DNA from: Octopus vulgaris
Lineage: Eukaryota
DNA length: 64,000 bases
Assembly: GCA_951406725.2 (NCBI GenBank)
Contig: OX597831.1
Location: 44,454,001-44,518,000 of the forward strand
Reading direction: 5' to 3'
Part shown: positions 18,406-50,168 of the stretch, piece by piece
How the letters are laid out: each line of letters starts with the position of its first letter
How positions within the stretch are numbered: the stretch's first letter is position 1
Notes under the pieces: generated by a model
Databases searched by the model: none
What the model was told of the DNA's origin: nothing
The model's input: the letters and a program-made list of their open reading frames with translations, nothing else
Position numbers and translations under genes: made by a program

Positions 18406-18445
<40 letters not shown>

Positions 18446-19375: not shown

Positions 19376-19441
19376 TGGCTGGATTATTTAATAACATTGT
19401 CAACAGAACAACTTAAACACCTAACAGAAGGAACAATAACG
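19376..19441 (+). CDS. METTL25B: METTL25-family coding exon 2 (66 nt)
   Basis: ttgtttcgtttctAG acceptor, WLDYLITLSTEQLKHLTEGTIT, GTAAAT donor; phase 0/0; continues the WxxxPxxW motif. Confidence 0.75.
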
Positions 19442-19529
19442 GTAAATATAATAATTATTTCTCCTCCATTTTGTCAGTTGTCATCAAAATATTCTATTGG
19501 GGAATGAGTGTTTTCTTGTTGTTTTCTCA

Positions 19530-20235: not shown

Positions 20236-20934
20236 CCTGGCAACATATATATTTGTGTCTGGTGATGTGTTTACGTCCCCGTAACTTAGCGGTTCGGCAT
20301 AAGAGACCGATAGAATAAGTACTGGACTTGCAAAGAATAAGTCCTGGGGTCAATTTGCTCAACTAAAGGTGGTGCTCCAGCATGGCTGCAGTCAAAGGAC
20401 TGAAACAAATAAAAGAGTAAAGAGAGAGACATTGTACTAAAGTAAAAAATAATAATCTTGGAAGTCAGGAGAGCTTCTACATAGTGCCATGGTGACACTA
20501 ACTTCTAATGTTTTTTCAAAAGCAATACATTGGTTATTGTAAATCAGTGTACACTATTCCTGAAAAATTAAGATTGGATGGTCACGGTAGAAATGCCTTT
20601 GATCATAGGTTTGCTCAGTCATAGCTTACCTAATGTTTAACAACAGCAGCAGCAAATTTCCAAGTATTAGAGAGTATCTATCCAGATAATTCTTTAATGT
20701 TGAAGGCATGAGGCCGAGTGGTTAAGCCGTTGAACTCATGATCACAAGATCACGGTTTCAATTCTTGGATTGGTTGGGATTGCATTGTTTTTTTTTAGAA
20801 AAAGACTTCAGTTCACATTGCTGTGTGATCACTTTGACACCTACAGCTGTTCAGGCAACATCAATTTCATGGTGGGAATGAGCTAACATACAGCACAAAC
20901 ATTTGATCACTTTTGTTATTTGGGAAATAGGGTG

Positions 20935-21486
20935 GATGTGGAGCAGCTGTGATGTCAAGAGTGAGACTTGGCGGGGTGAAGTTCAGGGAATGTGGAGTGT
21001 TATTATATGGGAAAAGGTTCTCCTTGAAGATGAAAGGAAGGGTTTATCAGAGTTGCGTGAGATCTACAATGCTGTATGGGAGTGAGGCATGGTGTCTGAG
21101 GGAAAGCGAAATGGCAGTTTTGAGAAGGACTGAGAGAGCAATGTGTGATGTGAAACTGTTGGATAAAAGGAAGGCTGAGGACTTGATGAGGATGTTGGGG
21201 TTGAAGGAATCGATGGAACAACTGGCAAGGGTGAATGGAGTGCGGTGGTTTGGACATGTGTTGAGGAGGGATGTGGATCATGTTCTGAGGAGAGTGCTTG
21301 AGTTCAAAGTGAATAAACCATGAAAGTGAGGTTGGCCAAAAAAATGTGGAGGGTACAGGTGGAGCAGAGGATTGAGGAGGGAGGACGTCCAAAACCAGGC
21401 GAGATGGTGTGAGAGCAGTTGCTATAAGAATGAGGTAGATCTGACCACCCCTGTTAACAGGGACAAACCCAGATTTAAAATATTGG
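20935..21486 (+). mobile_element. RTE-clade LINE ORF2 3' fragment
   Basis: KGRVYQSCVRSTMLYGSEAW...RWFGHVLRRD...LRRVLEF, canonical RTE post-RT motifs. Confidence 0.9.
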
Positions 21487-21677
21487 AATTCAGCAACAAA
21501 TTGCAGAACCATCTTTCTTGAACTTTGAAGACTACTATCATGTATGATTTGACAACCATTGTCAAATCCTGAATAGAAATACACGACTATTATAAATACT
21601 CATTTCTTCTATGTTGGAAAATCTGAAGACCTTTTTTGGCTTAATAAAGAATGAATTTGTTTTTATTTGTGTTACAG

Positions 21678-21899
21678 AGTAACTGTCCAGATAGCCTGAA
21701 AGAATACATTGAGACATGCATAGAGTTATCTACACACCGGAAACAGTTGGACAACTTTGATCCTCCACCACTTAATTCATTTTTCACTGATGGCCTGAGT
21801 ATGAAGAAAAAACATGAAATAACTGCCATGTCAAGTCTTGTTCATAATCTAGCCTCTTGTGCAAACATCCATACTTTGGTTGATGTTGGTTCTGGTCTG
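21678..21899 (+). CDS. METTL25B: METTL25-family coding exon 3 (KKxHE motif and SAM-binding motif I)
   Basis: ttacAG acceptor; SNCPDSLKEY...GLSMKKKHEITAMSSLV...LVDVGSGL; GTGAGT donor. Confidence 0.92.
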
Positions 21900-22452
21900 G
21901 TGAGTATTGCTTCTTGCATTGAAACAAGTTTAAACTAATTTTAATTATTTTGTGCACAGCACAACACAGCATTTACTGGATAATGTGAAATATTTTATGC
22001 AATCTTTATCTTTCGTTTTTTTGTTTTTTTCTTTTACTTTTTACTTGTCTCATTCGTTGGACCGTAGCCATGCTGGGCCACTGCCTTGAAGAATTTGGTA
22101 GAACAAATTGACCCTAGTGCTAATCTTTTTTTCAGTCTGGTATTTACTCTTTCAATCTCTTATGCCAAACTGCTAAGTATGGGAACATAACAAACCAACA
22201 CTAATTGCCAAGGAACAGAAGAAACAAACACAAACACACACACATTCAACTGTGTATAGACACACACACACACACACATCCGAATTTGTATGATTGTGTA
22301 TTGAAGAATATGTTAATCAATCAAATTCCAATCTAGTCTGATTTTTACGTTTTATTATTTACAATTTTCACAATATTATAATAACAGAATTTTATATATT
22401 TATTGTTATAAAACTAGTACCTTCATGTGCTACGCAATCATCAGGTTTATGT

Positions 22453-22513
<61 letters not shown>

Positions 22514-23108
22514 ACAGTCGTCATCATCATCACCTTCATCATCCTTTAATGTCTGCTTTCCATGCTGGCATGGGTTGGATGGTTTGATTGGCAAGCTGGA
22601 GAGCTGTACCAGGTTCCAGTCTGATTTGGCTTGGTTTCCACGGCTGGATGCCCTTCCAAATGCCAACCACTTTACAGAGTGTGCTGAGTGCTTTTAATGT
22701 GGCACCGCACAAGCGCTGTTACATGGCATCAGCACAGGCCACTTGCAAACCACGCCTCCTCACTTTATTAAATAGTCTAAAGTGGTTCTGAGAAAATAAG
22801 CACAGGTATGGCTGTGTAGTTTAAGAAGTTGAACAAGCATATGATCAAAGAAGCATTCCAACTGTGGCCATCCATAAATTTATATATCTAGAACTACATT
22901 GTCACATTCATCCTTCCCTTTTTGAGATTGTAGGATATGATTTGAATGAGATTTGGCTACTATGTTTAACAGTTTGTGCAATTTCATTAAGGATCCCTCA
23001 TTAGTTTACTAAGTAACTTTGTTGTTGTAATTGTTGTTATTGTGGAGCAGAGGAAGCAGGAAGACAAGGATTTATTTCTAATATTTCATTTAATCTCTTA
23101 ATCCACAG

Positions 23109-23214
23109 GGTTACATAGATCATGCATTATCTTCTACGCATGGCTATGATATTTTGGGCATTGAATGCCATGAAATTTTTGCTCATAAATCTGAAATGCG
23201 TGCTGCTCAATTTG
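23109..23214 (+). CDS. METTL25B: METTL25-family coding exon 4
   Basis: ccacAG acceptor; GYIDHALSSTHGYDILGIECHEIFAHKSEMRAAQF, completing DVGSGLGY; GTAAGC donor, phase 1. Confidence 0.9.
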
Positions 23215-23316
23215 GTAAGCATTATTCCATAACTTCAAATAACCAATTTACCATTTTGCTGCTGTGCTTTGTAATGCTTCAGATCTATTTTTGCTTTTCA
23301 CTTTCTTCCCTCACAG

Positions 23317-23598
23317 AAATTGAACAGCTTCCAACTTGTAAATTTTCCACTTGCATCCTTCAATTGAAGCAGTCAAAAGAATGCCTACAACAGTTTGAAG
23401 AAGCCCTCAGTAACCATCAACAACAACATAGAAGACCTCCTACAACAGCATCACCGTCCGCAGAAGAACCTGTAATGTTGATGGGGTTACATTGTTGTGG
23501 AGATTTGACACCAACAGTCATGAACATCTTCCTGCAGCTAAACCAAGCTCGTATATTGTCATGTATCAGTTGTTGCTACCACAAAATGGATTATAACA
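23317..23598 (+). CDS. METTL25B: METTL25-family coding exon 5
   Basis: ctcacAG acceptor; contains LMGLHCCGDLT and SCISCCYHKM, the family GLHxCGDL and CCY motifs; GTGAGT donor. Confidence 0.93.
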
Positions 23599-23975
23599 GT
23601 GAGTTCTTATCATGTCTGCTGTGAAGTTCTTCAGTAAACATCTATCTCCATTTTTGATTCGATTTTAGGCTTTTTCTCAAAAATTCCATTGTTAGAATAT
23701 ATCTGATTCACACATGAATGGACAGCTCTGTCAAACAGGTCATCGTTTTATCTTTTGTTATCTTTTACCTTTTCCGGTCATTAGACTGGGGCACCACCTT
23801 GAAGCAATTTAGTCAAACAAATCAACCCCATTGCCTTTTATTTTTTAAAGCTTGGTACTTAGTCTATCGGTCTCTTTTGTTGAACCACACAAAGTTATGG
23901 AGGACATAAACACACCAACACCAGTTGTCAAGGTGGTGGAAGACAAACACAGACACAAAGACATACACACACAGA

Positions 23976-24710
23976 TATCATCATCATCATCATTTAACGT
24001 CTGCTTTCCATGCTGGCATGGGTTGGATGGTTTGACTGAGGACTGGCAAGCCAGCAGCTGCACCAGGCTCCAATCTGACCTGGCAAGGTTTGTACAGCTG
24101 GATGCCCTTCCTAACACCAACCACTCCAAGAGTGTAGTGGGTGCTTTTTACGTGCCACCAGTACGAGGGCCAGTCAGGGGGAGCTGGCATCGACCACACT
24201 TGAATTGTGCTTTTTACATACCACCAGCACAGGAGCCAGTCAGGCGGCACTGGCAATGACCACACTCAAATGGTGTTTTTTACATGCCATCAACACAGGT
24301 ACCAGTCAGGGGGCACTGGCATCAGCCACGTTCGGATGGTGCTTTTTACATGCCACCAGCACAGGAGCCAGTCAGGCGGCACTGGCAATGACTCCGCTCG
24401 AATGTTGCTTTTTACGTGCCACCGGCACAGGAACCGGTCAAGGAGGCACTGGGAATAGCCACGTTCAAATGGTGCTTTTTTACGTGCCTCCAGCATGGGA
24501 GCTAGTCAGGCAGTACTGGCATTGGCCACGACAATGATTTCACTTGACTCAACAGGTCTACTCAACCACAGTTTATTGCCCAATGATTGAAAAGTATTCT
24601 TAAATGGGCTGGTTATGCTACCCTGGCATAGGCCACGGTTATGGTCTCACTTGACTCGCCAGGTCTTCTCTAGCACAACATATCTCCAAAGGTCTCTGTC
24701 GCTCCATGAG
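23976..24710 (-). mobile_element. RTE-LINE 3' UTR copy with about 6 internal 60-bp repeats
   Basis: (CAT)n start, family core, and repeated gtgctttttac(a/g)tgccacc units at 24140-24530. Confidence 0.75.
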
Positions 24711-25469
24711 GTGGTGGTGGCGACGACGATGGTGACTACAGCGACGACGATTTCGTTGGGAAGGAGGTTGTCCTATCATGTCTTTCACTAGTTTAGATCT
24801 ACTTGGACTTTTCAAGTTAAAGTCCTTGAGATACCATGCAGTATTACTGATAATGATAATTTCTATAATAAGTATAAGGCTACTAATATTGACTGGAAGT
24901 GTGCAGTCAACTTAATCATCCACACTACATGATTAACACTTACTTTATTGACCGTCAAAGGAATGAAAATGCACAGTTTACTTCGAGATTTGAAGCCAGA
25001 ATGTAAGGGGGATAACTACATACATCCCCCACCTCGGGCTTTTCGTCCAGTTCTCTACCGTTACTGCTATCCACTGTGCTAATTAATAAATTATTTCTGT
25101 TTTTGGTATCAGGACATATTATAGAAAAAGAAAAGTTCAATTTAACTAGCATCAGTACTTTACTGTCACTGAGTGCGAATTTATCGACCCCCTTTTGTGA
25201 TCGATAAATTCACACTCAACTCAAACCCTACCATCTTTTAAAAGAAGGATGCCATTGAACAAGAAAAAGATCGTTGATCACAGCTGTGACCAGCGATCTT
25301 CTGTAATCATTATTTTCCTGAGGAGGGGCATCATTGTTGTTTTAAAGAAGTTGTTCCTCTTTAACCATTTTTGTTGTTTTATATTGACTTTTCTTTTTAT
25401 TTTATTTTTTCCTGTTTCGGCAGTTTAAACCATTTCCACAGTAACTATTACATAACTATGAAGTGTTAC

Positions 25470-25950
25470 TACTTATTTCTTTATTGCCCACAAGGGGCTA
25501 AACATAGAGGGGACAAACAAGGACAATCAAAGGGATTAAGTCGATTACATCGACTCCAGTGCGTAATTGCTACTTAATTTATCGACCCCGAAAGGATGAA
25601 AGGTTAAGTTGACCTCGGCAGGATTTGAACTGTGAACGTAACAGCAGACGAAATACTTATTTCTTTATTACCCACAAGGGGCTAAACACAGAAGGGACAA
25701 ACAAGGACAGACATAGGTATTAAGTCGATTACATCGACCCCAGTGCATAACTGGTACTTAATTTATCGACCCCGAAAGGATGAAAGGCAAAGTCGACCTC
25801 GGCGGAATTTGAACACACAACGTAACGCAGACGAAATACCGCTAAGCATTTCGCCCGGCGTGCTAACGTTTCTGCCAGCTCGCTGCCTTAAAAGAAATAC
25901 TGCTAGGCATTTCGCCTGGCGTGCTAACGTTTCTACCAGCTCGCCGCCTT
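25470..25950 (-). mobile_element. Two tandem young Nin/Deu-domain SINE copies
   Basis: Duplicated cccacaaggggctaaaca...tttatcgaccccgaaaggatgaaagg...gaatttgaac, with a duplicated tRNA-like head; also at 43835-44069, 46128-46352 and 57188-57405. Confidence 0.8.
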
Positions 25951-26137
25951 ATGAAGCTAAGGCTAAAGAATGAAGTGAGGCAGGCAGAGATATGCAGAAT
26001 TTATGGGTATTCTGCAGATATAGGTTGAATGTTGGGGGAGGGTACGAAGGCAATCAAATGGTAAGTCCTAGCTATTAAGAAATTGTAGTGTTATGCGCAA
26101 TTGACTTATCAATTGGAAAGATGTAGGATGTTGTTTT

Positions 26138-26448
26138 ATATACGAATATGTTATACAGGATGTGGAGACTACTTTTAATATGTGGACATGTTTTCCTGGA
26201 AAGGAAACACCTGGTGGTAATAGTAGTGCACTACTTATCATTAAGGAGCTCAAAGAAAGATGGGGTTATATACTAGACTTTGCCTAGTACCGAGTTAGAG
26301 GAGATATACGAATATGTTATACAGGATGTGGAGACTACTTTTAATATGTGGACATGTTTTCCTGGAAAGGAAACACCTGGTGGTAATAGTAGTGCACTAC
26401 TTATCATTAAGGAGCTCAAAGAAAGATGGGGTTATATACTAGACTTTG
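26138..26448. repeat. 145-bp direct duplication with a 21-bp spacer
   Basis: 26138-26282 equals 26304-26448; no mismatch seen by eye. Confidence 0.9.
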
Positions 26449-26774
26449 GAATTTATATAGGTGGTGTTGATATTATTTTATTATATTATAGTGTAATTGC
26501 CATTGTGTTAATCAGGTAATGCACCTCTGGACAATAGTCGTGGGTAAGAGGTTTGGATAGTGTGTTTCATCTATCATTTAACATGCACAGCACAAATAAC
26601 TGTATCTAGGTATAAGGAGTGGAAAATGGAGCATTTTCCTATTGCCTGTTCATTAAAATGTTCATTTACTTTTGTTTTATTCATTCATTTGTGTTGTACT
26701 CTGTATTTAGTAGCCCTTTTCTTGTGTTGAATGTCTGTTAGTAAACCATTCCACTTTATTTCTTTTGTTTCTAG

Positions 26775-26904
26775 TCAATGAGCATCAATTCACTAACTTC
26801 CCCATGAGTGCCAAGGCCAAGAGAGCTTTTAGCTTCCAACAAGGGATCAATGGGTCCTCTCATCTGAATGTCTACGCCCTGAGATTGGCAGCTCAGCAGA
26901 CAAA
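26775..26904 (+). CDS. METTL25B: METTL25-family coding exon 6
   Basis: tttgtttctAG acceptor; NEHQFTNFPMSAKAK...YALRLAAQQT with the family FPMS motif; GTAAGA donor; phase 1->2. Confidence 0.88.
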
Positions 26905-27155
26905 GTAAGAAAAGTTCACATGAAAACTTTTTTTTAACCCTTGATACTTGTGTGTATATATGTGTATGTGTGCCTATGTAGTGGAGAGGATTTCAGTATA
27001 TCCACAAATATACATTTATTCATTCCTTCCATTTAATGTCCATTTTTCCATGGTAACATCATTAAAATGATGATGATGATGACGATGATGATCATCATCC
27101 TCCATTTTCATTTTATAAAACCCTTTAAAGTAATCAAATATTTTTATATTGTCAG

Positions 27156-27247
27156 AGGTCAGTGGATGAACCAAACAGAAGCTCAGTATGACTACTGTAA
27201 AAAGAATGTGACATTGCGAGGGTTGCTAGAAATCTTGTTTCTGAAAG
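27156..27247 (+). CDS. METTL25B: METTL25-family coding exon 7
   Basis: ttgtcAG acceptor; GQWMNQTEAQYDYCKKNVTLRGLLEILFLK; GTTAGT donor; phase 2->1. Confidence 0.82.
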
Positions 27248-28712
27248 GTTAGTTGTAAACATCCAGCATTATCTTAGAAAATGCTTCACCTTCTTTTATT
27301 ATGTTTTCTGCCTTAACGAACAAATCATTATCTTTATAACAAAGCTGGTTTTCTTGAATCTGTGTATGAGTATCTGTGTGTGTGTGTGTGTATGTGTAAT
27401 ATATATATATTTACTTTTTTACTCTTTTACTTATTTCAGTCATTTGACTGCGGCCATGCTGAAGCACCGCCTTTTACTCAAGCAAATCGACCCTAGGATT
27501 TATTCTTTGGAAGCCTAGTACTTATTCTTTCGGTCAATTTTGCCGAACTGCTAAGTTACGGGGACGTAAAGACCTCACCATCGGTTGTCAACAGGCAAAG
27601 TTGTTGATAAGAATTACCAACAAAAACAAAGCTGATAAATACACACAAGTGTTGCAAATTAAGTTTAATTACCAATAACCATCAGCTTAGATGACACTTT
27701 ATTCAACTGACAGAGGAAGGTGACTGATCAAACTGATTATGTAAACAGAATTTTTTTCCCACCTATTCTTGTTGGAATCTTTGATATGGAGTATCAAAAG
27801 TTTAACCCCTTCCACACTTATAAAATGTCAAGCAAACTTTAAAATTTGTCATTACCGTTATTGTCAGTATGAGCAGAACTTACAAATCATTTACTACGAA
27901 GGAGAAATTAAATATGTTGAATATGCATTTGAATGTGGCAATAGAGCCAATGTTTGAAATTGGTGTAAACAGTACAACAAACTTAAAACTGTGCCTAAAT
28001 AATAAACAGACAAAAATAAAAACATACTATCAACATTATATCATTACATTTTTTTTCAGTCAGGAATATTCATATCATTATGTATGTTAATGGTGCCCCA
28101 TTGTGATAGGTAGAAACTCGAAACAATGTAAAATATGGCCTGGACTGTGTTTACTAGCATGAACATCAGACTTCAAAAAATAGTTAACCAATTAATGGTT
28201 TTTAGTAAATTTATACAGAAAAGTAAGCATTATACCGTCAACTTCATATTTAAGCCATTATTTTTTTCTGTAAAAACCTTTTCTGACATTAAATGAGTCA
28301 AATGTTTACATTTTGTACATTTTTTTACAACCAAAAGAAATTCTGAAAACTATCTACTCATGTAATTTATACACCCTCTAAAGTTTATTTTTATTTTTGC
28401 AAAAAAATGTGCATAAATTACATGGGTTTTTATGGTAGATAAAATTATCTCATTCCATTTCTAGGAAGGGCCTCCCCACCACTCAATCTCCTAAATTCAT
28501 TTCCTACTTTTGTTTATGCTTAATCGGTAATGCTTTTCTATGTATTTATATATAACTAGCTTAAAAATTGCCCTATTAGGCGGCATTTTTTTTCTTCAAG
28601 ATCTCTGACAACTATATCTGGCCTATTGGCCTTAATTTCTCTATCTGCATGTATTGGCATTATTACTATTATTATTATTATTATTTAAGATTCTTTGTAT
28701 AATATTTTCCAG

Positions 28713-28820
28713 AGGGCATTGCTCAGTCAAAACAAGTGTGTCGTGTGAAAAAGAAGATCAATTATTCGACAGCTGAGGCTTACATTGATGCTGTACTTTC
28801 AAATATTCAAGATATTGCAG
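28713..28820 (+). CDS. METTL25B: METTL25-family coding exon 8
   Basis: ttttccAG acceptor; GIAQSKQVCRVKKKINYSTAEAYIDAVLSNIQDIA; CAG|GTAATT donor; phase 1->1. Confidence 0.8.
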
Positions 28821-29067
28821 GTAATTTCTCCATTCTTTCTTTTATTTCTCCATTCTTTCTTTTATTCTTTAACTTTTTTCAGTCATTTGACTGTGGCCAT
28901 GCTGGAGCACTGCATTAAAGGGTTTTTAGTCAAAGAAATCGAGCCTAGTACTTATCCTATCAGTCTATTTTGCCAAACTGCTAACTTACAGGGACGTAAT
29001 CACACCAACACCGGTTGTCAAGCAATGGTGGGGATGAGCAAACACAGACACACACACACTTAAATAT

Positions 29068-29445
29068 AGGCGCAGGAGTGATTGTGTGGAAAGAAGCTTG
29101 CTTCCCAACCACATGGTTCCGGGTTCAATCCCACTGCATGGTACCTTAGGCAACTGTCTTATACTATAGCCTCAGGCCAACCAATGCTTTGTAAGTGGAT
29201 TTGGTAACTGAAAGAAGCACGATGTTTGTGTGTCTGTGTGCCTGTGTTTAAGCCCTCATCATCACTTGACAACCGATATTTGTGTGTTTACTCCCCCATA
29301 ACTTAGCAGTTCAGCAAAATAGACCAATAGAATAAATACTAGGCTCACAGAGAATAAGTCCTGGGGTCGATTTCTTTGACTAAAGGCTGTGCTCCAGCAT
29401 GGCCACCGTCAAATGACTGAAACAAGTAAAAGAGTAAAAGAGTAA
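29068..29445 (+). mobile_element. Full-length tRNA-derived SINE (dominant family)
   Basis: Head ggcgcaggagtg..tgtgtgg...ccgggttcaatcc; tail tgactgaaacaagtaaaagagtaaaagag; other copies at 37816-38245, 46535-46950, 50835-51276(-), 51705-52052(-), 59140-59526 and 62559-62850(-). Confidence 0.85.
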
Positions 29446-30096
29446 ATCAAATCAACTCTAAGGTGATGAACTTGCAGAATTTTTAGCACACCGGGCAAAT
29501 TGCTTAGTGGCATTTCATCTGTCTCTACCTTCTGGGTTCAAATTCCACTAAAGTCGACTCTGCCTTTCATACTTTCGAGGTCGATAAATTAAGTACCCAT
29601 TGAGCATTAGTGTCAATTTAACTGACCTTTTCCTCTGACCTTGTGCCAAAATTTGAAAGCAATAATTAAATCAACTCTGCAATTTGATTTAGGTTTTTAG
29701 ATGAAGTGATTTAATTCCTCTTACGCTGCCAAATTTCTTGGAAGATACATAAACATCACAGCACACCATTTCTCATTTCATGAGTCTGTCAGATCTATCA
29801 CCAGCCAGTGTGCTGTAGCCATCAAAGTTCTCTTAATATCTTGCATTTTAAAGACTTACAGCAACTATTCTACAATAACTGAAACCCATTTTATGCTAAG
29901 TTAACTTGTGCTTTGCCCAAGACATAATACACTGCCCAGACAGGGAGCTGAACTTGCAACCTTATCATCATGAGTCCAACAGCCTAACCACTCAGCCAAA
30001 CATCATCACATAGACCAACCTATACATTTGTTAAAAGACATGAGTATTTTGTGTATTCACTCACTTTCTGTAGCATGATTCACCCTTTAGCATTCA

Positions 30097-30359
30097 ATTA
30101 CAGATAAGTTCACCACCATCAGTTCAATGCATGGGAGTTTGCTGCTATCAATTCACCATGAACATTAGAGTTAAAAAATAAGGCTTTTTTATTCTTTTAC
30201 TGTGAACTTATCTCTGTGTAAACTATTTTTTGTGAACTTTCTTCACAGTGAATGTTCTTCGCAGTGAATGCTCCTTACGGTGAACTTTCCCCTGCAGTGA
30301 ATTGATAATGGTGAACTTTCCCAGCAGTGAACTGATGACAGTGAATTTACTGGACATGA
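30097..30359. mobile_element. MULE-like non-autonomous element inserted into a piggyBac-like MITE
   Basis: 9-bp TSD tagcattca at 30088-30096 and 30360-30368; internal gtgaact subrepeats. Confidence 0.6.
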
Positions 30360-30618
30360 TAGCATTCAGATTTCTTTGTCAAATTATTTCTTATTTGTTC
30401 TCATGGTTTTGAATTAGTCATATATTACATTGTAGCTTCAAGATTTCAACAGTGTGTTTGTATATTTTTAGAACAACATTGTATGATAGGTGTGAAAGAT
30501 AGGATCAGGTCAGTTTGAACATAAAACAGGTAGAATATTTGGGCTGGATGTGACTGAATTACAAGCTGAAGGCTCAATATTTTGATGTAATTTCTCTTCT
30601 ATTTTTATGAAATGTCAG

Positions 30619-30704
30619 AAGATCGTGCACATTACCTTAGCAAGGAGTTTCTCCAGCTATTCGCAGACAACCAGACTAATTTCCAGTTTATAGAACCAAT
30701 AACA
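30619..30704 (+). CDS. METTL25B: METTL25-family coding exon 9
   Basis: tgtcAG acceptor (NAGNAG); DRAHYLSKEFLQLFADNQTNFQFIEPIT; GTAAGT donor; phase 1->0. Confidence 0.78.
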
Positions 30705-31824
30705 GTAAGTTCTCTCTCTACTTTCTTTCAGAATTACTAAAATAAATTAAGTATCATCATCATCATCATCATCATCATCGTTTAATGTTCACTTTCCATG
30801 CTAGCATGGGTTGGACGATTTGACTGAGGACTGGCGAACCAAATGGTTGCGCCAGGCTCCAATCTGATCTGGCAGAGTTTCGACAGCTGGATGCCCTTCT
30901 TAACGCCAACCACTCCGAGAGTGTAGTGGGTAATTTTACATGCCACCAGCATGAGGGCCAGTCAGGCGGTACTGGCAATGGCCATGCTCAAATGGTGTTT
31001 TTTACGTGCCACCTGCACAGGGACCAGTCCAGCAGCACTGGCAACGACCTCACTCAAATGTTTTTCATGTGCCACCAGAACAAGTGCCAGTAAGGTGACG
31101 CAGGTAATGATCACGCTTGAATGGTGCTTTTTATGTGCCACCAGCACGGAAGCCAGTCAGCTGCTCTGGCAACGATCACGCTTGGATGGTGCTCTTAGCG
31201 CTCCACTAGCACAGATGCCACTCATCAAATTTGATTTCAATTTCATCGATTTGTTATTTTATTTTTATTGTTATGTTCAGAGTGCTTTGAACACCATCAT
31301 CATCATTTAATGTCCGTCTTCCATGCTGGCATTGGTTAGACAGTTTGATAGGAGCTGGCCAGCCAGAGAGCTAACCATGCTCAATTGTCTGTTTTGGCAT
31401 GATTGCTACAGCTGGATGCCCTTCCTAATGTCATCCACTCTACAGAGTAAACTGGATACTTTTTACATGATACTAGTGCAGGTGCTTTATACACAGCACC
31501 AGCACAGGTACCTTATATGTGACACTGGTACGGGTGCTTTATATATGGTACCAGCGCAAGTGATATATAAGTGGCATTTGCACAGGCGCTTTATGCATGG
31601 AACCGGCACAGGTGCTTTATCGTAAGAGAATATTTTTGGTTTTCTTACTTTAAGATAAGGCAGAAAGTTTTTCCAGTCTCCTTTCAATAAATGATAGGAA
31701 CAGTTGATTAAAGGTTTTTTTGTTGCATCTGAAATATGTCAAACTTCTATAATGATGGTTCTTTCTCATTTTTTTTTCTATGCCCTGCCATTAATCTGCC
31801 TTGTTTTACCTCTTTTTCTTCCAG

Positions 31825-31980
31825 TGTTTGCAGGTTTTGTTACAACCCGTTCTGGAAACCTTGATTCACTATGACCGTCTGGCCTTTCTCCAAGAAAATG
31901 GATGTCGAGCGTATTTGATACCATTGTTTAATGAACAGATTTCTCCACGAAATATCATAATTGTTGCAGAGAAGAAATGA
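31825..31980 (+). CDS. METTL25B: METTL25-family terminal coding exon 10
   Basis: tttttcttccAG acceptor; CLQVLLQPVLETLIHYDRLAFLQENGCRAYLIPLFNEQISPRNIIIVAEKK*, matching the family C-terminal ETLIxxDR...SPRN motif; total 1410 nt = 469 aa + stop. Confidence 0.92.
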   Translation, partial: CLQVLLQPVLETLIHYDRLAFLQENGCRAYLIPLFNEQISPRNIIIVAEKK

Positions 31981-38329: not shown

Positions 38330-41660
<3,331 letters not shown>

Positions 41661-42332
41661 ATCTTTATATATGTTGTTTTGTTTTTGTTTCTATTTTTCT
41701 GGATCGGCTTTTAAATGATAGCAATTTCTAGAAAGAATAAAAGGTAAAAAAAAAAAGTCATACAATACAATAATTTTTAATTTTAAAACAAAAGTCTTTC
41801 ATGCTAGTATTAATGTGTCATTTACGGTGGTGCTATCTTCACTTCGTTATCCAGTAAATCCATTTCATTAGTGGGACAGATAATTACTAATCATTTCAAA
41901 CCAATAAGATTCTTTTTCTCTATAAATATTCTTTTTTTTTTTCATCTTTTTGAGGTTTTTTTTTTCTTTTTCTAATAATGATAAATCACGCTGAAAATAT
42001 TTGTGCTGAAGTAGTTACTACCACCACCACCACCACCACCACCACCATCACCGACTACCACCACCATCATCACTGTTCCTGTAATTATAAACATTATCAT
42101 GATTAAGAAATACATTATCATAGGTTCTGTGGTTATGAAATTCACTTTGCAACTGTAAAGTTTTTGGTTCAGTTCCACCGTCTGGCACCTTGGGCAGGTG
42201 TCTTCTATTGTATAGCCTTGGGCTGACCAAAGACTTGTGAGTGGATTTCAAAGATGGAAACGGAAAGAAGCCTGTTATATATGCATGTATGTAGCATACA
42301 TACATATATATATGTATATATATAAATTTGTA

Positions 42333-42370
<38 letters not shown>

Positions 42371-42373
<3 letters not shown>

Positions 42374-43102
42374 TCATCATCATCATCATCATTTAGCGTC
42401 CGTTTTCCATGCTAGCATGGGTTGGACGGTTTAACTGGGGTCTGTGAAGCCGGAAGGCTTCATCAGGCCCAGTCAGATTTGGCAGTGTTTCTACGGCTGG
42501 ATGCCCTTCCTAACGCCAACCACTCCGCGAGTGTAGTGGGTGTTTTTTACATGCCACCTGCACAGGTGCCAGACAGAGCTGGCACAACGGCCACGAACGG
42601 ATGGTGCTTCTACGTGTCACCGGCACCGGGCCAGGCGATGCTGGCAACGGACACAAACGGATGGTGCTTTTACTTGCCACCGACACGGGGCCAGACAGAG
42701 CTGGCAAACGGCCACGAACGGACGGTGCTTTTACGTGTCACTGGCACGGGGGCCAGCCGAGGCTGGCAACGGACAGGAACGGGTGGTGCTTTTACGTGCC
42801 ACCGACACGGGGCCAGACAGAGCTGGCAAACGGCCATGAACGGACGGTGCTTTTACGTGTCACCGGCACGGGGGCCAGCCGAGGCTGGCAACGAACACGA
42901 GCAGATGGTGCTTTTACGTGCCACCGACATGGGGGCCAGACAGAGCTGGCAAACGGCCATGAACGGACGGTGCTTTTACGTGTCACCGGCACGGGGGTCA
43001 GCCGAGGCTGGCAACGGACAGGAACGGGTGGTGCTTTTACGTGCCACCGACACGGGGCCAGACAGAGCTGGCAAACGGCCATGAACGGACGGTGCTTTTA
43101 CG
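42371..43102 (-). mobile_element. Young RTE-LINE 3' UTR copy with an expanded 60-62-bp tandem array
   Basis: About 9-10 units marked by ggtgcttttacgtg; CpG-rich; alternating A/B units. Confidence 0.85.
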
Positions 43103-44361
43103 TATGTATATCTTTGTATATCCTCTGGTAAACACGATACTGGCAGGCATCATGAAAGGGTTTGGGCTCCTCTTAAAAGACCTGGAGTACCAGCTGGCCA
43201 CTGCCTTCCACCCCAAGTTCCACCTTTTCTGGCAGGAGCAGTATAATAACAGCCAGGTTAGCAGAGTAAGGAACATCATGGAGACCATTGTAAAGACAGC
43301 CCTTATGGAGACCAGTGAGAAGAGCAGCAGCACAACCAGCAATGAAGGTGAGGAAGATAATTTCTTCAGCAACATCATTTGGTTCCAGGAGAGCAGGATC
43401 CACAGGTCTAAGGCACAGAATTGGCTGGAGGCTGTCTTGAAGGAAATCCTGATTGAAGTCTCTTTTTTGGGTGAGCAGGTCTTGATTGACCTGGTCATGA
43501 AGTATAACACCACCATTCCATCCAGTACTTCAGTTGAATGCCTATTCTCTTTAGGCAAAGATATTTCGAGGGCCAAGAGAGCCACCCTATCAGATGGTAA
43601 CTTTGAGAGGCTGATGTTTATGAAGGGCAACCAGCAGCACATTGAGGTGATGAAGAAGGCCCAACCAGAGTAGCACACCATGATCATCATCTGAGCATGG
43701 CATGCTATACTATACCTTTTTTTATTCATTTAATACTTTTTGTACAGTAAATAAAATGTATGTTGACTGAAAAACTAATGTTTAATTTCATTTGTTTATT
43801 TAATTGTTTGCGTACACCTTGATCCTCATCTGACCTTATTCCTTTACTGCCTACAAGGGGCTACACACAGAGAGGACAAACAAGGACAGACAAATGGATT
43901 AAGTCAATTATATCGACCCCAGTGCATAATTGGTACTTATTTAATCGACCCCAAAAGGATGAAAGGCAAAGTTGATTTCGGCGGAATTTTAACTCAGAAC
44001 GTAACGGCAGACAAAATACGGCTGAGCATTTTGCCCGGCATGCTAATGTCTATGCCAGCTCGCCACCTTTAGAGTAGTACACTATGATCATCATCTGATC
44101 TTGGCATGCTATACCTTTTTGAAAAGCTCTATGTTTTAGCTACAACAGGAAAATTTCAGCTCCCTAGCTCAGTTTCTAAGGGTTTTAAAGCCAAAAAAAA
44201 AAAAAACCGAAGCTAAATTCATATGATAAATTTAGCAGTTATCCATTAGCATTAGCTTCTGCTAATTATTTTACCTGTTTAGTGGTTTAGCATGTGCAAA
44301 GTTAATTTTTTAGTTAACAGATTAGCGAAGCTAACTTTTTGGTTAGCTGTGCCCACCACTG
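43103..44361 (+). mobile_element. hAT transposon 3' remnant: transposase C-terminal dimerisation domain plus right terminus
   Basis: ATAFHPKF...KYNTTIPSSTSVECLFSLGKDISRAKRATLSDGNFERLMFMK (hATC, SxxxERxFS-like); terminus ...tgcccaccactg at 44361; SINE inserted at 43835-44069. Confidence 0.85.
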
Positions 44362-44898
44362 TATATATATATTGCAAAACACACACACACACACACACGG
44401 ACATACATATGCAAGGAGACAGAGGTGCATACATATACAAACACATGCTCACACGCAGACATACATAAAAAATACACAAACACGGACATGCAAGCACATG
44501 AATATGCAGAATACATACATAGAGATGCACACACATACATATATACATATGCATACACTCACATATATACATACACACACATACATACATGCATAGACAT
44601 GCACACACACACACATACACACACATACACACACACACTGAACCACACACATGCACACAAACATACAACAAGGAATGCAATGTAAATAATGGACAGAGTC
44701 AAGACTATTGAAAAGGTTGCAAAATGCAACGAAAATTTTAGGGAAATAAAAATAAGATATAAGTGGAAATTTTACCGGTGAGTGTGTTAAATTATAAGGC
44801 ACAAAAAGAAAATGACTCTCCCCAGACGCAACAGAATATGCTTCAACACACAAACTCACATAAAGAATCATGCAAACCAAATCCAAAAATGAAATATA

Positions 44899-44942
<44 letters not shown>

Positions 44943-44961
44943 TGTGTGTTATATATATATA

Positions 44962-45234
44962 TATATATTAGAAGAAATGAGGTAATCAGAAGATTGGATG
45001 GTTCATATTTATAGATATTTATTTATATATTACATTTTTTACATATATATATCATATCATTCAGATCATATCATTCAGATTATTAGCGCTTTCTCCCATT
45101 TTAGTGGGGTTTTCAAACTGAATGATATGATCTGAATGATATGATATATATATGTAAAAAATGTAATATATAAATAAATATCTATAAATATGAACCATCC
45201 GATCTTCTGATTACCTCATTTCTTCTAATATATA
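44962..45234. repeat. 117-bp near-perfect inverted repeat with a 39-nt loop (Penelope-like fold-back element)
   Basis: 44962-45078 is the reverse complement of 45118-45234, one mismatch seen; the ORF track shows RRNEVIRRxDGSYL on both strands. Confidence 0.92.
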
Positions 45235-45668
45235 ATACCTGTACATCATCTCCAAACCTTCCAATATATATATATACACACACATATGTATGTATGTATT
45301 TATAAAATATATTTATATTAGCAATAATTATTGCAATATAGAACATAGAGATTTGTTTGTTCATCCTTAAAATTTATTTCCTCTTATTTTACAATTTTAT
45401 ATAGCATATTACACTATAAGCACTACACTTGAAATCAAAGCTACAGTCTACTCAACCACAACAGTACACAAAGAGCCCTGTGTAAACACTAACATCAACG
45501 TTGACCTAACTGGACCGAACCCTGACCTCAGACAGCAACTGGTGTGGATTTGAAGTCAATGACATAAGCCTGCAAACATATCCGGTTTCAGTTTCACCCC
45601 CCCCCCTCCCGAACTATCACAAAACAATTAATTCCACTCAGTTTGCTTCGAAACTAGTCAAATTGGCA

Positions 45669-45752
45669 GATCCTGAAGAAGCTGCATTGAAAATCATGCC
45701 AGGTTGCATCCGCAACTGCCTGTAATCTATGCAGTGGAAACACATGTAGGTC
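45669..45752 (+). ncRNA. Candidate type-I hammerhead ribozyme
   Basis: gatc-CTGAAGA-a-gctgcat...atgcagt-g-GAAA-c-acat-GTA-ggtc: complete core, 4-bp stem I, 7-bp stem II, minimal stem III, GUA site; the 10.1-11.1 pair is A/G (non-canonical). Confidence 0.6.
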
Positions 45753-46097
45753 ATAAAGACCATAATAATATATTGTATAAAATTGTTAAAATAAGAGGAA
45801 ATAAATTTTGAGTGTGAACAAGTCTTCATATTCTCTGTCATTATAATTATTGCTTATATATACCCCAGACAATATTACGGCCCAGTGAAGCAAACACTGA
45901 ATTACCCATTGGAGGAATTTACAGAGTGACTGACAAGTTATAGTAGTCATAGATATTAAATAGTGATCGATGTGGTTAGCTCTAGCCTGGAGCATAACTG
46001 AGAGCCATGACGGTATCCGCCCAGATGATATATCCCTCCAAATTCGGATAGATAGAGATGTAGGTAGGTAGGTAGGTAGGTAGGTAGCCAGGCAGGC

Positions 46098-46129
<32 letters not shown>

Positions 46130-46388
46130 TTCTTTACTACCCACAAGGGGCTAAACACAGAGGGGACAAACAAAGACAGACAAACGGATTAAGTCGATTA
46201 CTGGTACTTAACTGGTACTTAATTTATCGACCCTGAAAGGATGACAGGCAAAGTCGACCTCGGCGGAATTTGAACCCAGAACGTAATGGCAGACGAAATA
46301 CGGCTACGCATTTCGCCCGGCATGCTAACGTTTCTGCCAGCTCACCACCTTTAGGTAAGTAGGTAGGTAGGCAGGCAGGTAGGCAGGC

Positions 46389-46475
<87 letters not shown>

Positions 46476-46979
46476 GAGGCAGACAGACAGATAGATAGAT
46501 AGAGAGGCAGACAGACAGATAGATAGGTAGACAGGTGCTGGCATGGTTGTGTGGTAAGAAGATTGCTTCCCAACCATGGTTCCACTTTGTAACCATGTAG
46601 TTTTGGGTTCAATCCCACTGCATGGCATCTTGGACAAGTGTCTTCTGCTATGGCTTTGGGCTGACCAAAGCCTTGTAAGTGGACTTGGTAGGCAGAAACT
46701 GAAAGAAGCCCGTTGTATATGTATGAGTGTATCTGCTTGTGTTTGTTTGTCCCACACCTCTGCTTGACAACTGGCATCAGTTTATTCACACCCCTGTAAC
46801 TTAGCAGTTTGGCAAAAAGAGATCAATGGAGTAAGTATCAGGCATGAAAAGAAAAGTGCTGGGGGTCAATTCATTCAAATAAGAAATTCTTCAAGGCATT
46901 GCCACAGCATGGTCGCAGTCTAATGACTGACACAAATAAAGAGTAAAAGATTATTATTATTATTATTATTATTATTATT

Positions 46980-47313
46980 GAGTGAGATAGCAGTGCATGC
47001 CATCAAAGTGACACTGGGGTAAAATATACGAAGCCCAATATACCCATCATGACTACCCGTCTGATAAGGGCACACCAGGCACACGCATCACAACCATATG
47101 TGCGTGACATGGTGATCTCATATCAAGATAAACAGCACATGACCTTGCAGGTGGGGCCCAGTTAGAATTTTCTTCAGGTTGAATAGCCCATCCCGCTCAA
47201 AAGGTCCCTGAATAAGGGTTGTTTAAGGATGTTGAAAGAACCACCCATGTTTCCAGAGGTGAATTATTCAAACCCCAAAGAATCCCTCTCAACACATGGC
47301 TATGATGCTCCCC

Positions 47314-47314
<1 letters not shown>
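46980..47314. mobile_element. Interspersed-repeat-like insert flanked on both sides by (ATT)n
   Basis: About 335 bp of complex sequence between (att)n runs at 46950-46979 and 47315-47370; family not identified. Confidence 0.4.
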
Positions 47315-47369
<55 letters not shown>

Positions 47370-47499
47370 GTTATGTATTCGTTAGTCAACTCATTCTTGT
47401 TATTGCTTAGTTTTTTTGTGTCTTTTTCTTTCTTTCTTTTTCTTTTTTAAAAATAAATTTTTGAAAATTTCATTTCAAACCAGAAAAATGACATTTCAT

Positions 47500-49256
47500 T
47501 ATGTCTGTGTATGGTTTTTTCTCTGTAAGTATGCATGTGTAATGTATGTGTTTGTATGTGTGCATGTGTGTGCATGTCTGTATGCGTAATGTGCATATGT
47601 TGTTTTGTGTCTATGCATGTCTGCGCATATGTATCTATGTATGTATGTATGAGTACATGTGCTTGTGTGTGTGTGTGCATGTGCATATGTATGTGTTTGT
47701 GTGTGTGTGCCTGTGTATGTATGTGCTTGTGTGTGCATGTATATGTATGTACCTGTGTGTGAAGGTGTATGTACATGCTTGTATGTGTGTGTGTGCATGT
47801 ATGTGCTTTTGTGTGTGCATGTATATGTATGTACTTGTGTGTACAGATGTATGTACGTGCTTGTGTGTGTGTGTGTGTGTATGTGCATGTGTACATGCTT
47901 GTGTGTGTGCATGTGTATGTATGTGCTTGTGTGTGTGTGCATATGTATGCACATGCTCGTGTGTGTGCATGTGTATATACATGCTTGTGTGTATGTGCAT
48001 GTGTATATACATGCTTGTGTGTATGTGCATGTGTACATATGTGCTTGTATGTGTGTGCATATGTATGCACATGCTCGTGTGTGTGCATGTGTATATGCAT
48101 GCTTGTGTGTATGTGCATATGTATACACATGTTTGTGTGTGTATGTGCTTGTGTGTGCATGTGTATGTACATGCTTGTGAGTATGCATGCATATGCACAT
48201 GCTTGAGCATGTGCATATATAAGTATGTGCTTGAGTGTATGTGTGTGCATATGTATGTGCTTGTGTGTGTATGTGTATGTGTTTCCATGTGTGTGCGTCT
48301 CTGTATATATGTGTCTTTGCATAGGTGTGTACATGCTTGTCTGTGTGCATGTGTGTGAGCACATGTATATGTGCATATATGTGTCTGTATCTGTGTGTGT
48401 ATGTGTGCAAGTATATAACCATGTGTGCATTTATGCAAGCATATGTATGTCTATATGTATATATATGTGTGTGTGTGTATGTGTGTGTATATATATATAT
48501 ATACTTGTGAATATATATATATGTATATATATATATGTGTGTTTGTATATATATGTCTATGTATATGTATATATATCTATATATATGTGTGTGTATGTAT
48601 ATATATAAATATGTGCCTGTATATATATATGTATGTCTGTGTATATATGTGTGTGTGTGTATATATATATATGTATGTGGGTGTGTATATATGTACATGT
48701 ATGCAAGCATATGCATGCATATCTATGTGTATATGATGACAAATCATAGCTAATGAATTTTTGAGAGGTTTTTTGTTTTACATTTTATGTTTTTTTTTTG
48801 TCATCCGGCATTGTATTTTTATCAAAAATAATAAGAATGATAAGTTATTTAATCTCAGTGGAACAACTGAGATTTTTACTTGTAATCAGCAATGAAAATA
48901 CAAATTATTATAGTTAAGAATACTAGTAATAACTTAATATTAATGTTTGACAAACTAATGCAATGCTAATGTATGTAGTGAGGGGGGTGCGTGTGTGTAT
49001 GTGCATGTCTGTGATGTGTGTGTGTGTATGTGTATGCGTGAACTTGTGTGGATATGTGTCTATGTTGCATGTGTGTCTATATGTGTGTACATGTGTGTGT
49101 ATGTGTGTGTGAGTGCATATATGTGTGTATGTGTTTCTATATGTGAGCAGGAGTGTATGTGTCCGTGTACACATGTGTATACATTTGTGTATGTGTGTGT
49201 GAGTGTGTGTGTATCAGTGTATGTGGGTATTAGTGTATGCATGTGTGTGTGCGTGA
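47500..49256. repeat. Large degenerate (TG/TA/TGCA) purine-pyrimidine simple-repeat field
   Basis: Directly visible; recurring gtgcatgtgtat..acatgctt units; source of the long H/T/Y and C/V/M ORFs. Confidence 0.92.
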
Positions 49257-49391
49257 AATAAGTTGTCCATCGGTTTTATGTGGAAAATGGAAGATATCAA
49301 TTGAATCTGGTTGTTGTTTTCACTTTCTTAGTTATTTATTCGAAATTAAACATTTATTTTTAAATATGAAGTTTACATTAATTTGAAATTA

Positions 49392-49829
49392 ATGGTGGTG
49401 GTGGTTTTGTTGTTGTTGGTGGTGGTGGTGGTAGTGATGGTGGTGGTAGTAGTAGTAGTAGTAGTGGTGGTGGTGGTGGTAGTGGTGGTTGTGGCAGCGG
49501 TGGTGGTGGTGGTGGCAGTGGTGGTGGTGGTAGTGGTGATGGAGGTTTTGGTCGTGATGGTGGTGGTGGTGGTGATAGTGATGGTGGTGGTGATAGTGAT
49601 GGTGGTGGTGGTAGTAGTGGTGGTGGTGGTGGTGGTGGTGGTGGTGGTGGTGGTGGTGGTGGTAGTGGGGGTAGTGTAGTAGTAGTATTAGTAGTGGTGG
49701 TGGTGGTAGTGGTAGTAGTGGTTGTAGTGGTGGTGGTATGGTGGTAGTGGTGATGGAGGTTTTGGTGGTGGTTGTGGTGGTGGTGGTAGTAGTGATGGTT
49801 GTGGTGGTAGTGATGGTGGTGTTAGCGTT

Positions 49830-49870
<41 letters not shown>

Positions 49871-50168
49871 GGTGTTGTTGTTGGTGGTGGTGGTTGTAGT
49901 GGTGGTGGTGGCGGTGGCGGTGTTGGTGGTGGTAGTGGTGGTGGTGGTAGTGGTGATGGAGGTTTTGGTGGTGGTGCTGGTAGTAGTGATGGTAGTGGTG
50001 GTAGTAGTAGTAGTAGTAGTGGTGGTGGTGGTGGTGGTGGTGGTGGTAGTGTAGTAGTAGTAGTGGTGGTGGTGGTGGTGTTGGTAGTGAAGTAGTAGTA
50101 GTGGTGGTGGTGGTGGTGGTGGTGGTGGTGGTGGTGGTGGTGGTGGTGGTGGTGGTGGTGGTTGGTTG
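49392..50168. repeat. (GGT)n/(AGT)n trinucleotide field
   Basis: Directly visible. Confidence 0.95.

What the first reader, a model, noticed from the sequence alone, without database searches (positions are those of the whole stretch)
44962..45234. 117-bp hairpin whose loop is a U3-A8 variant hammerhead core
Seen: near-perfect 117-bp arms (1 mismatch). Read on the minus strand, the 39-nt loop is t-TTGAAAA-c-ccca-ctaaaa-tggg-a-GAAA-gcgc-TA-ataat. This maps onto the hammerhead core with the C3-G8 pair swapped to U3-A8, a 4-bp stem II and a palindromic stem III (AGCGCU). Established: positions 3-8 form a Watson-Crick pair that tolerates covariation, and palindromic stem III is typical of Penelope hammerheads that fold as dimers. 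Inference: a young element in which the long arms would extend stem I past a 4-nt bulge. The same hairpin would be a strong ADAR/Dicer substrate or DNA cruciform. Searches demanding CUGANGA would miss it.
Basis: partly seen in the sequence, partly recalled or inferred. Interest (0 to 1): 0.72.

Follow-up and report, generated by a model that had tools for sequence, protein, structure and literature searches.

The report
Head-to-head Penelope ends, decaying hammerhead
The hairpin is two short end pieces of a common octopus jumping gene sitting head-to-head; its loop holds that gene's hammerhead-type self-cutting RNA motif, which likely ended up unpaired by chance and probably cuts poorly or not at all, so the locus is ordinary, although the family's variants offer a ready test of whether these elements need their ribozyme.

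Summary
The hairpin is real (117-bp arms, one mismatch). It is one insertion of a Penelope-like retrotransposon with reverse transcriptase and C-terminal GIY-YIG nuclease (Neptune/Nematis type): two 5'-truncated 3' ends, head-to-head, one with the 30-nt tail, in (TA)n. The loop is the longer copy's overhang; the motif is unpaired in only 5 of 18 such hairpins, so the arms are not a designed stem I. The motif is hammerhead-derived: relatives carry C3-G8 (303 matches), U3-G8 (287) or U3-A8 (2,112), rarely C3-A8 (42); stem II covaries; U3-A8 arose at least twice. U3-A8 Penelope hammerheads and inverted ends are published. This lineage lacks the 10.1-11.1 pair, has a 2-bp stem I, and its youngest intact-ORF subfamily lost A13. 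Copy 5' ends pile up just upstream of the motif (34 of 96), not at the cut site (3 of 96). Cleavage, editing and this junction's presence in reads were not testable. The scan noted similar hairpins elsewhere in this genome. Verdict: new member of a known kind; modest interest.

The parts
44950..44968 (.). (TA)n run at the left end; likely target site (overlaps the first 7 nt of the arm)
   Evidence: sequence; nearly all fetched copies end in (TA)n
44962..45117 (-). Inverted, 5'-truncated copy of the Penelope-like element's 3' end (pLTR), without tail; begins 34 nt upstream of the predicted cut site, 1 nt before U3
   Evidence: alignment to ORF-linked copies L063/L061
44962..45078 (+). Left arm of the hairpin, 117 nt, one mismatch at 44995
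45079..45117 (-). 39-nt loop = the part of the longer (inverted) copy that the shorter copy lacks
45084..45116 (-). Hammerhead-derived motif: U3 45116, A8 45111, C10.1 45109 and A11.1 45094 unpaired, 4-bp stem II 45108-45105 with 45098-45095, GAAA 45093-45090, palindromic stem III to 45085, A17 45084; the cut would fall between 45084 and 45083
   Evidence: homologous canonical cores in sister families
45118..45234 (+). Right arm = sense copy of the same 3' end, truncated 5 nt downstream of the predicted cut site, so it holds no motif
45235..45264 (+). 30-nt Penelope 'tail'; in tandem full-length copies the same sequence runs on into the element body
   Evidence: L091, L093; PMC8557442, PMC11167929
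45265..45276 (.). (TA)n run at the right end; no target-site duplication can be read

Best explanation
The hairpin is two 5'-truncated 3' ends of a Penelope-like retrotransposon joined head-to-head in a (TA)n tract, likely the product of one insertion event, and its loop is the overhang of the longer copy, which carries the element's hammerhead-derived U3-A8 motif, probably left unpaired by chance and predicted to cut weakly or not at all. Steps: (shown) the arms match the 3' end of a ~5-kb element with RT and C-terminal GIY-YIG; one arm has the tail, the other not; junctions vary between copies. (Inferred from published PLE work) the element's nuclease nicks AT-rich DNA and the RT starts at two sites, one on each side of the tail, giving two short cDNAs that are joined at their truncated ends. 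(Shown) the motif descends from canonical cores via U3-G8, with stem II covariation. (Inferred) selection kept the fold and the dimer palindrome, but this lineage has since lost the 10.1-11.1 pair and, in its youngest subfamily, A13, and the copied RNAs were mostly uncut.
For: Element identity: 80 matches and 1,184 candidates for the hairpin in the own genome; upstream sequence of longer copies leads into a GIY-YIG ORF; a 775-aa ORF with RVT_1 E=4e-10 and GIY-YIG E=9e-6 is open in all 9 full-length loci fetched (chosen because one search listed them as open). Tandem, inverted and tailed forms in those loci match the published architecture (PMC8557442 passages; PMC3846280 passages). Arms of one locus differ less (mean 1.2 per 75 nt, 17 loci) than arms of different loci (2.2, 136 pairs). 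Chance placement: motif unpaired in 5 of 18 hairpin loci; in 40 motif-selected loci the script found 6 inverted pairs, none with the whole motif free. Hammerhead descent: counts C3-G8 303, U3-G8 287, U3-A8 2,112, C3-A8 42, controls 3, 3, 4, 1; pair 10.2 is C-G in 149 of 158 window-lineage copies and U-A in 56 of 59 older ones; U3-A8 rows rejected as one clade, p-AU 1e-101, with positions 3, 8, 13 masked. Weak activity: 10.1-11.1 paired in 1 of 158 copies, third stem I pair in 25 of 158; GCAA in place of GAAA in the youngest clade, nested among GAAA copies with near-zero branches; 5' ends of 96 arms: 34 at -51..-32, 3 within 3 nt of the cut site against 1.6 expected; in an anole Poseidon element cleavage was not needed for insertion in vitro (PMC11167929 passages).
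Against: No cleavage assay and no raw RNA reads. Retention of the 3-8 pair (156 of 158), stem II and the palindrome, and the rarity of C3-A8, argue that function lasted until recently; copies are not independent, so these counts stand for few events. U3-A8 cores are active in other hammerheads (PMC3088659 section 8), and the anole ribozyme cut only with its protein, so activity in the particle is possible. A13C was amplified twice, once on a canonical C3-G8 core, which could mean it is tolerated. In a canonical-core sister family 2 of 30 copies start within 1 nt of the cut site by eye: too few to show a contrast. The pile-up upstream of the motif is weak in the youngest subfamily (3 of 30, two of them apparently one local duplicate), and cut RNAs might simply not be copied. 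Bootstraps had not settled (correlation 0.949). Clade placement rests on motifs, not on a tree with named references.
Confidence: 0.8

Rival explanations
1. Same origin, but the U3-A8 motif is still an active, dimer- and protein-assisted ribozyme in this subfamily, trimming a ~40-nt leader from a minority of transcripts.
For: 3-8 pair kept through a U-G step in two lineages, C3-A8 never amplified; stem II forms with probability 0.78-0.99; two native leaders pair through the palindrome at -20.9 against -10.6 kcal/mol for two monomers; natural U3-A8 cores and a U-U mismatch at 10.1-11.1 are active elsewhere (PMC3088659 section 8); protein-dependent cleavage in Poseidon (PMC11167929).
Against: C-A at 10.1-11.1 and a 2-bp stem I; no pile-up of 5' ends at the cut site; descendant subfamily amplified with GCAA.
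Confidence: 0.25
2. One reading: a self-contained young element whose long arms extend stem I and so make the looped hammerhead functional.
For: In the window and 4 other loci the motif is unpaired between long arms; a fold with U2.1-A1.1 and a 4-nt bulge can be forced.
Against: Each of the 18 loci has its own junction; 12 of 18 bury the motif in duplex and 1 lacks it; forced fold 4.2 kcal/mol above the MFE, pair probability 0.02; the unit lacks the upstream TATA-like motif; no second copy with this junction among the 80 and 49 matches that I could view (30 loci each).
Confidence: 0.04
3. A MITE (non-autonomous DNA transposon with long terminal inverted repeats and TA target).
For: Short, inverted, inserted in TA, many copies.
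Against: Ends are asymmetric (tail on one side); 34 of 40 motif-selected loci scored as single-armed by script, at least 3 of them with a partner seen by eye; arms continue into an RT/GIY-YIG element.
Confidence: 0.01
4. The palindrome at this one locus is an assembly artefact.
For: No listed contig in 4 runs bridged the junction; long inverted repeats can be misassembled (PMC8557442).
Against: Arms differ at a CpG site, only one has the tail, the loop has a private change; other inverted junctions of this family occur in independent contigs of run X5.
Confidence: 0.03

Closest known systems
Canonical C-terminal-endonuclease Penelope-like elements of the Neptune/Nematis type (Craig et al. 2021, PMC8557442)
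   Same: RT followed by GIY-YIG, CX2-5CxxC linker, DKG motif, heavy 5' truncation, tandem and inverted pLTRs, 30-40-nt tail on one end, (TA)n target, hammerhead near the 3' end
   Different: Not Naiad_Obim or Hydra-1_Obim of that paper's supplement (domain order and motifs differ; three peptide motifs of this ORF were not found there). Has a long upstream ORF1 overlapping the RT ORF in the -1 frame. Neptune versus Nematis not resolved.
Minimal U3-A8 hammerheads of Schistosoma mansoni Cercyon PLEs, and the Drosophila virilis Penelope variant (Cervera and de la Pena 2014, PMC4209133)
   Same: U3-A8 covariation in a pLTR (about 1,300 hits in S. mansoni); pairs of motifs on opposite strands 100-700 bp apart; palindromic short helix III and 2-bp helix I as in D. 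virilis
   Different: Their consensus keeps G10.1-C11.1; this lineage has C-A there, and two subfamilies have C13. The paper's text reports no U3-G8 intermediate subfamilies (parts 1-2 of 4 read; supplement file 1 not searchable).
Adineta vaga Penelope elements with inverted pLTRs (Arkhipova et al. 2013, PMC3846280)
   Same: Head-to-head inverted pLTR of unequal length, 31-bp tail on one copy, TATA-like motif in the pLTR
   Different: Here both copies are cut down to under 160 nt and no ORF is included
Poseidon element of the green anole (Frangieh et al. 2024, PMC11167929)
   Same: Tail, hammerhead in the pLTR, no genomic or transcript trace of cut ends
   Different: Canonical C3-G8 core with protein-dependent cleavage shown in vitro; different clade

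Membership tests
Penelope-like elements (EN+, C-terminal) | RT followed by GIY-YIG endonuclease in the parent element | tested here: met
   RVT_1 289-456 and GIY-YIG 687-774 in the 775-aa ORF of L091; its 3' end matches the hairpin arm at 80%, ORF-linked L063 at 97%
Penelope-like elements (EN+, C-terminal) | Tandem and inverted pLTRs with 5' truncation | tested here: met
   L091, L093 tandem; L091, L092, L096 inverted; 29 of 96 arms flagged with an inverted partner
Penelope-like elements (EN+, C-terminal) | 30-40-nt tail on one end | tested here: met
   45235-45264 on the right copy only
Neptune/Nematis clades | CX2-5CxxC linker before the endonuclease, DKG motif, (TA)n bias | tested here: met
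   motifs at ORF residues 644 and 154; (TA)n flanks
Neptune clade | Groups with named Neptune RTs in a phylogeny | not testable with these tools
   No named reference proteins could be loaded; one search returned unnamed relatives only
Hydra or Naiad clades | DKT and CxCX5C linker without CCHH (Hydra); N-terminal endonuclease (Naiad) | tested here: not met
   DKG, CX4CxxC, C-terminal GIY-YIG
Type I hammerhead ribozyme (PLE minimal form) | Core U4 G5 A6 N7, A9, G12 A13 A14, A15.1-U16.1, H17 with a Watson-Crick 3-8 pair | tested here: met
   3-8 paired in 156 of 158 lineage copies
Type I hammerhead ribozyme (PLE minimal form) | Stem II with covariation | tested here: met
   4 pairs, probability 0.78-0.99; pair 10.2 C-G versus U-A, pair 10.3 C-G versus U-A across lineages
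Type I hammerhead ribozyme (PLE minimal form) | Closing pair 10.1-11.1 (consensus G-C) | tested here: not met
   C-A in 142 of 158, paired in 1 of 158
Type I hammerhead ribozyme (PLE minimal form) | Stem I of at least 3 bp | tested here: not met
   Two pairs in most lineage copies, third in 25 of 158; in the window the junction removes the native second pair and the first has probability 0.02. A 2-bp helix I is reported for D. virilis (PMC4209133)
Type I hammerhead ribozyme (PLE minimal form) | Palindromic stem III allowing a dimer | tested here: met
   6-bp self-duplex, -10.3 kcal/mol; it appears in both co-folds; prediction only
Type I hammerhead ribozyme (PLE minimal form) | Self-cleavage after H17 | not testable with these tools
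   No raw RNA reads were offered; indirect genomic test shows no excess of copies starting at the site
MITE | Fixed symmetric termini and a uniform unit | tested here: not met
   variable junctions, one-sided tail, mostly single-armed copies

The most novel reading that the evidence does not exclude
This octopus Penelope lineage records, inside one genome, a hammerhead core walking from C3-G8 through amplified U3-G8 subfamilies to U3-A8 at least twice and taking up A13C twice, with the youngest intact-ORF subfamily still spreading on a GCAA core; the fold and dimer palindrome are kept for a non-cleaving role at the very 5' end of the transcript (for example RNA dimerisation or RT loading), so Penelope hammerheads need not cut.
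Probability: 0.3. Interest if true: 0.55.

Novelty: new member of a known kind. Interest (0 to 1): 0.28.

Why it matters
The locus itself is a routine retrotransposon scar. The family matters modestly: what Penelope hammerheads do is an open question (PMC8557442, PMC11167929), and this genome supplies a natural series of cores (C3-G8, U3-G8, U3-A8, with and without the 10.1-11.1 pair and A13), each amplified to many copies, that can be assayed side by side and compared with copy number and with where copies begin. It also shows that CUGANGA searches miss most motifs of this family here (303 canonical against 2,399 U3 matches plus 686 without A13).

Tried and rejected
Rfam at E<=10 over 40000-50000 and 45040-45160: no hammerhead family among the listed hits (26 low-scoring rows not shown). 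The repeat finder over 10 kb was swamped by microsatellites. Sequencing runs: no RNA holder listed and only contigs, so expression, editing and cut ends could not be read. Laying contigs on 45079-45420 and 45080-45155: no listed piece bridged the junction; no verdict. First DNA tree kept only 22 rows through an over-strict filter and was replaced (then 59-60; one search used 101 of 232 rows after length filters, random thinning of large subfamilies, and removal of all C3-A8 rows and distant families). In the EN tree one long-branch row (L265) is probably an unrelated neighbour. BLAST-based truncation mapping missed partner arms and was redone; four rows with values near -920 were script artefacts, checked and counted as very short copies. 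One search covered 96 of the first 100 of 344 listed matches (4 matches of two loci already held, L002 and L027, were left out). The +5/+6 values are artefacts of an ungapped walk. Comparator with a canonical core (30 of 48 matches) was inconclusive. An upstream CGAAAC stretch was considered as an alternative 3' half and dropped: no matching 5' half or palindrome. Lunse et al. 2016 and Nelson and Uhlenbeck 2008 were not held; that A13 is catalytically required is recalled, supported here only by its place in the core consensus of PMC3088659. Literature searches for an octopus Penelope hammerhead, U3-A8 with wobble, A13/C3U/G8A and Neptune frameshifting found no description of this family; subscription papers, Repbase and supplement file 1 of PMC4209133 were not searched.

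Full report
1. The observation. The hairpin is as described: arms 44962-45078 and 45118-45234, 117 nt, one mismatch at 44995, a 39-nt loop. On the minus strand the loop maps to hammerhead numbering with U3 at 45116, A8 at 45111, G12 at 45093 and A17 at 45084. Two things were missed: positions 10.1 and 11.1 are C and A and do not pair, and a 30-nt extension follows the right arm before the (TA)n run. Rfam listed no hammerhead hit. The host is an octopus: a gene at 16963-31977 is 96% identical over the query exon to a protein named RRNAD1-like of Octopus sinensis; the hairpin lies 13 kb beyond its stop codon.

2. What it is. A search of the 2.8-Gb own genome gave 80 matches among 40 scored of 1,184 candidates. 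The 18 distinct hairpin loci among the 30 fetched each have their own central junction, end in (TA)n and mostly carry the extension on one side only. Longer copies run upstream through a 1.2-kb microsatellite-rich 3' UTR into an ORF ending in GIY-YIG. Nine full-length loci hold a 775-aa open frame with RVT_1 and GIY-YIG, DKG, YLDD and a CX4CxxC linker; the unit is about 4.98 kb and occurs in tandem and inverted forms, with the tail running on into the element body. This is the architecture described for endonuclease-bearing Penelope-like elements: partial tandems, an inverted 5'-truncated copy, a 30-40-bp tail on one end, (TA)n targets (PMC8557442, passages and section 11; PMC3846280, passages). 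The window's right arm is a sense copy cut 5 nt downstream of the predicted cleavage site, with tail; the left arm plus loop is an inverted copy cut 34 nt upstream of it, without tail. Arms within a locus are closer than arms between loci (1.2 against 2.2 differences per 75 nt), as expected if both come from one template.

3. Is the loop placed there for a reason? No sign of it. Among the 18 hairpin loci the motif is unpaired in 5 (window included), at least its 3' half is in both arms in 12, and it is absent in 1. Among 40 loci chosen by the motif in genome order, the script found 6 inverted pairs, 5 with the motif fully and 1 partly paired; at least 3 more pairs seen by eye also have it in both arms. 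In the window's minus strand stem II forms (0.78-0.99) but the first stem I pair has probability 0.02, and forcing the hammerhead-like fold costs 4.2 kcal/mol.

4. Is the motif a hammerhead? By descent, yes. With the family's 3' half fixed, the genome holds 303 C3-G8, 287 U3-G8, 2,112 U3-A8 and 42 C3-A8 matches, with 1-4 for reversed controls. The listed U3-G8 matches form subfamilies, whereas the C3-A8 ones are scattered over several families (read by eye from the first 100 and all 42 rows). Stem II covaries: the second pair is C-G in 149 of 158 window-lineage copies and U-A in 56 of 59 older ones. A DNA tree of 101 rows with positions 3, 8 and 13 masked rejects one clade for the 46 U3-A8 rows (p-AU 1e-101) and places them in two lineages, each beside or mixed with U3-G8 copies (bootstraps rough, stem II not masked). 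The order C3-G8, U3-G8, U3-A8 is my inference from these placements; the tree is not resolved within the older group. U3-A8 is published for Penelope hammerheads of Schistosoma, along with motif pairs on opposite strands (PMC4209133, parts 1-2 of 4 and supplement passages), and for other natural hammerheads (PMC3088659, section 8 and passages).

5. Does it cut? Probably little. The consensus G10.1-C11.1 pair is present in relatives but paired in 1 of 158 window-lineage copies; stem I is two pairs. A pattern without A13 has 686 matches (control 24), mostly GCAA in two subfamilies, one old with C3-G8 and one the youngest; the youngest carries the intact ORFs and nests among GAAA copies with near-zero branches. 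In 96 arms chosen by a downstream anchor, 34 begin 32-51 nt upstream of the cut site (4.7 expected from the downstream background; Poisson p 2e-18, arms treated as independent) and 3 within 3 nt of it (1.6 expected). A TATA-like motif at -73 would put a transcription start near -43, so these copies likely come from uncut RNAs; but a -4.4 kcal/mol hairpin ends at the same place and could stall the RT, and the youngest subfamily, which lacks that hairpin, shows only 3 of 30 ends there and none at the cut site. Either way no excess of cut templates is seen. Against inactivity: the kept 3-8 pair and palindrome, a predicted dimer gain, published activity of U3-A8 and of a U-U closing mismatch, and protein-dependent cleavage in the anole element, where cleavage was nonetheless not needed for insertion (PMC11167929, passages). 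In a canonical sister family 2 of 30 copies start at the cut site by eye, too few to judge.

6. What could not be tested. Only contigs were available, so editing, small RNAs and RNA ends are open. No listed contig bridged this junction; other inverted junctions of the family do occur in run X5. Other papers seen: PMC6765202 and PMC12602865 (passages), bioRxiv 10.64898/2026.07.22.740005 (passages; supplements closed). Earlier notes of this scan reached the same kind of reading for other hairpins in this genome; none lay near this window; my reading was formed before that look-up.

7. Verdict. Observation confirmed; interpretation partly supported. A new member of a known kind: an inverted Penelope stub with a known core variant. 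Confidence: Penelope inverted ends about 0.97, hammerhead descent about 0.93, little or no cleavage about 0.7. Interest 0.28, resting on the family's natural series of core variants and not on this locus.

Noticed in passing
L091:2270-6182 and L093:1910-5822 (full-length parent element): An ORF1 of about 530 aa with no Pfam match overlaps the 775-aa RT/EN frame in the -1 frame; a U-UUU-UUA heptamer sits in the ORF1 frame at the start of the overlap in all 9 loci, and homology of the RT frame starts about 15-25 residues before its first Met: a candidate -1 ribosomal frameshift. The downstream structure is weak (-9 kcal/mol). One search found no description for Neptune elements.
   Followed up: partly
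own genome, subfamily of L084-L099: Very young subfamily: dozens of equal-scoring endonuclease copies and more than 10 listed 775-aa open frames, 287 exact matches of its 3' anchor; probably still active, and its hammerhead motif reads GCAA.
   Followed up: partly
own genome, L101, L103, L254-L271: An older subfamily combines a canonical C3-G8 core and long stem II with A13C, so this change was amplified twice.
   Followed up: partly
own genome, L141-L170 and L404-L433: The commonest canonical-core family has U-U or G-U at 10.1-11.1, a pairing reported as tolerated in PMC3088659.
   Followed up: no
window 10375-10405 (minus strand): A second Penelope-type hammerhead motif with canonical core and palindromic stem III.
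   Followed up: no
window 16963-31977 (+) and about 11242-11826 (-): RRNAD1/METTL25B-like gene in 10 exons, head-to-head with an exon that looks like exosome subunit EXOSC3/Rrp40 (name recalled, not tested).
   Followed up: partly
L023 (C1:210841243-210841506): A hairpin of this family whose centre is an unrelated GC-rich palindrome in place of the motif.
   Followed up: no
L059:1842-2350, L036, window 42963-43673: Fragments of other transposons near family copies and in the window (RTE-like RT end, Tc1-like transposase, hAT-like C-terminus; names recalled from the translations).
   Followed up: no
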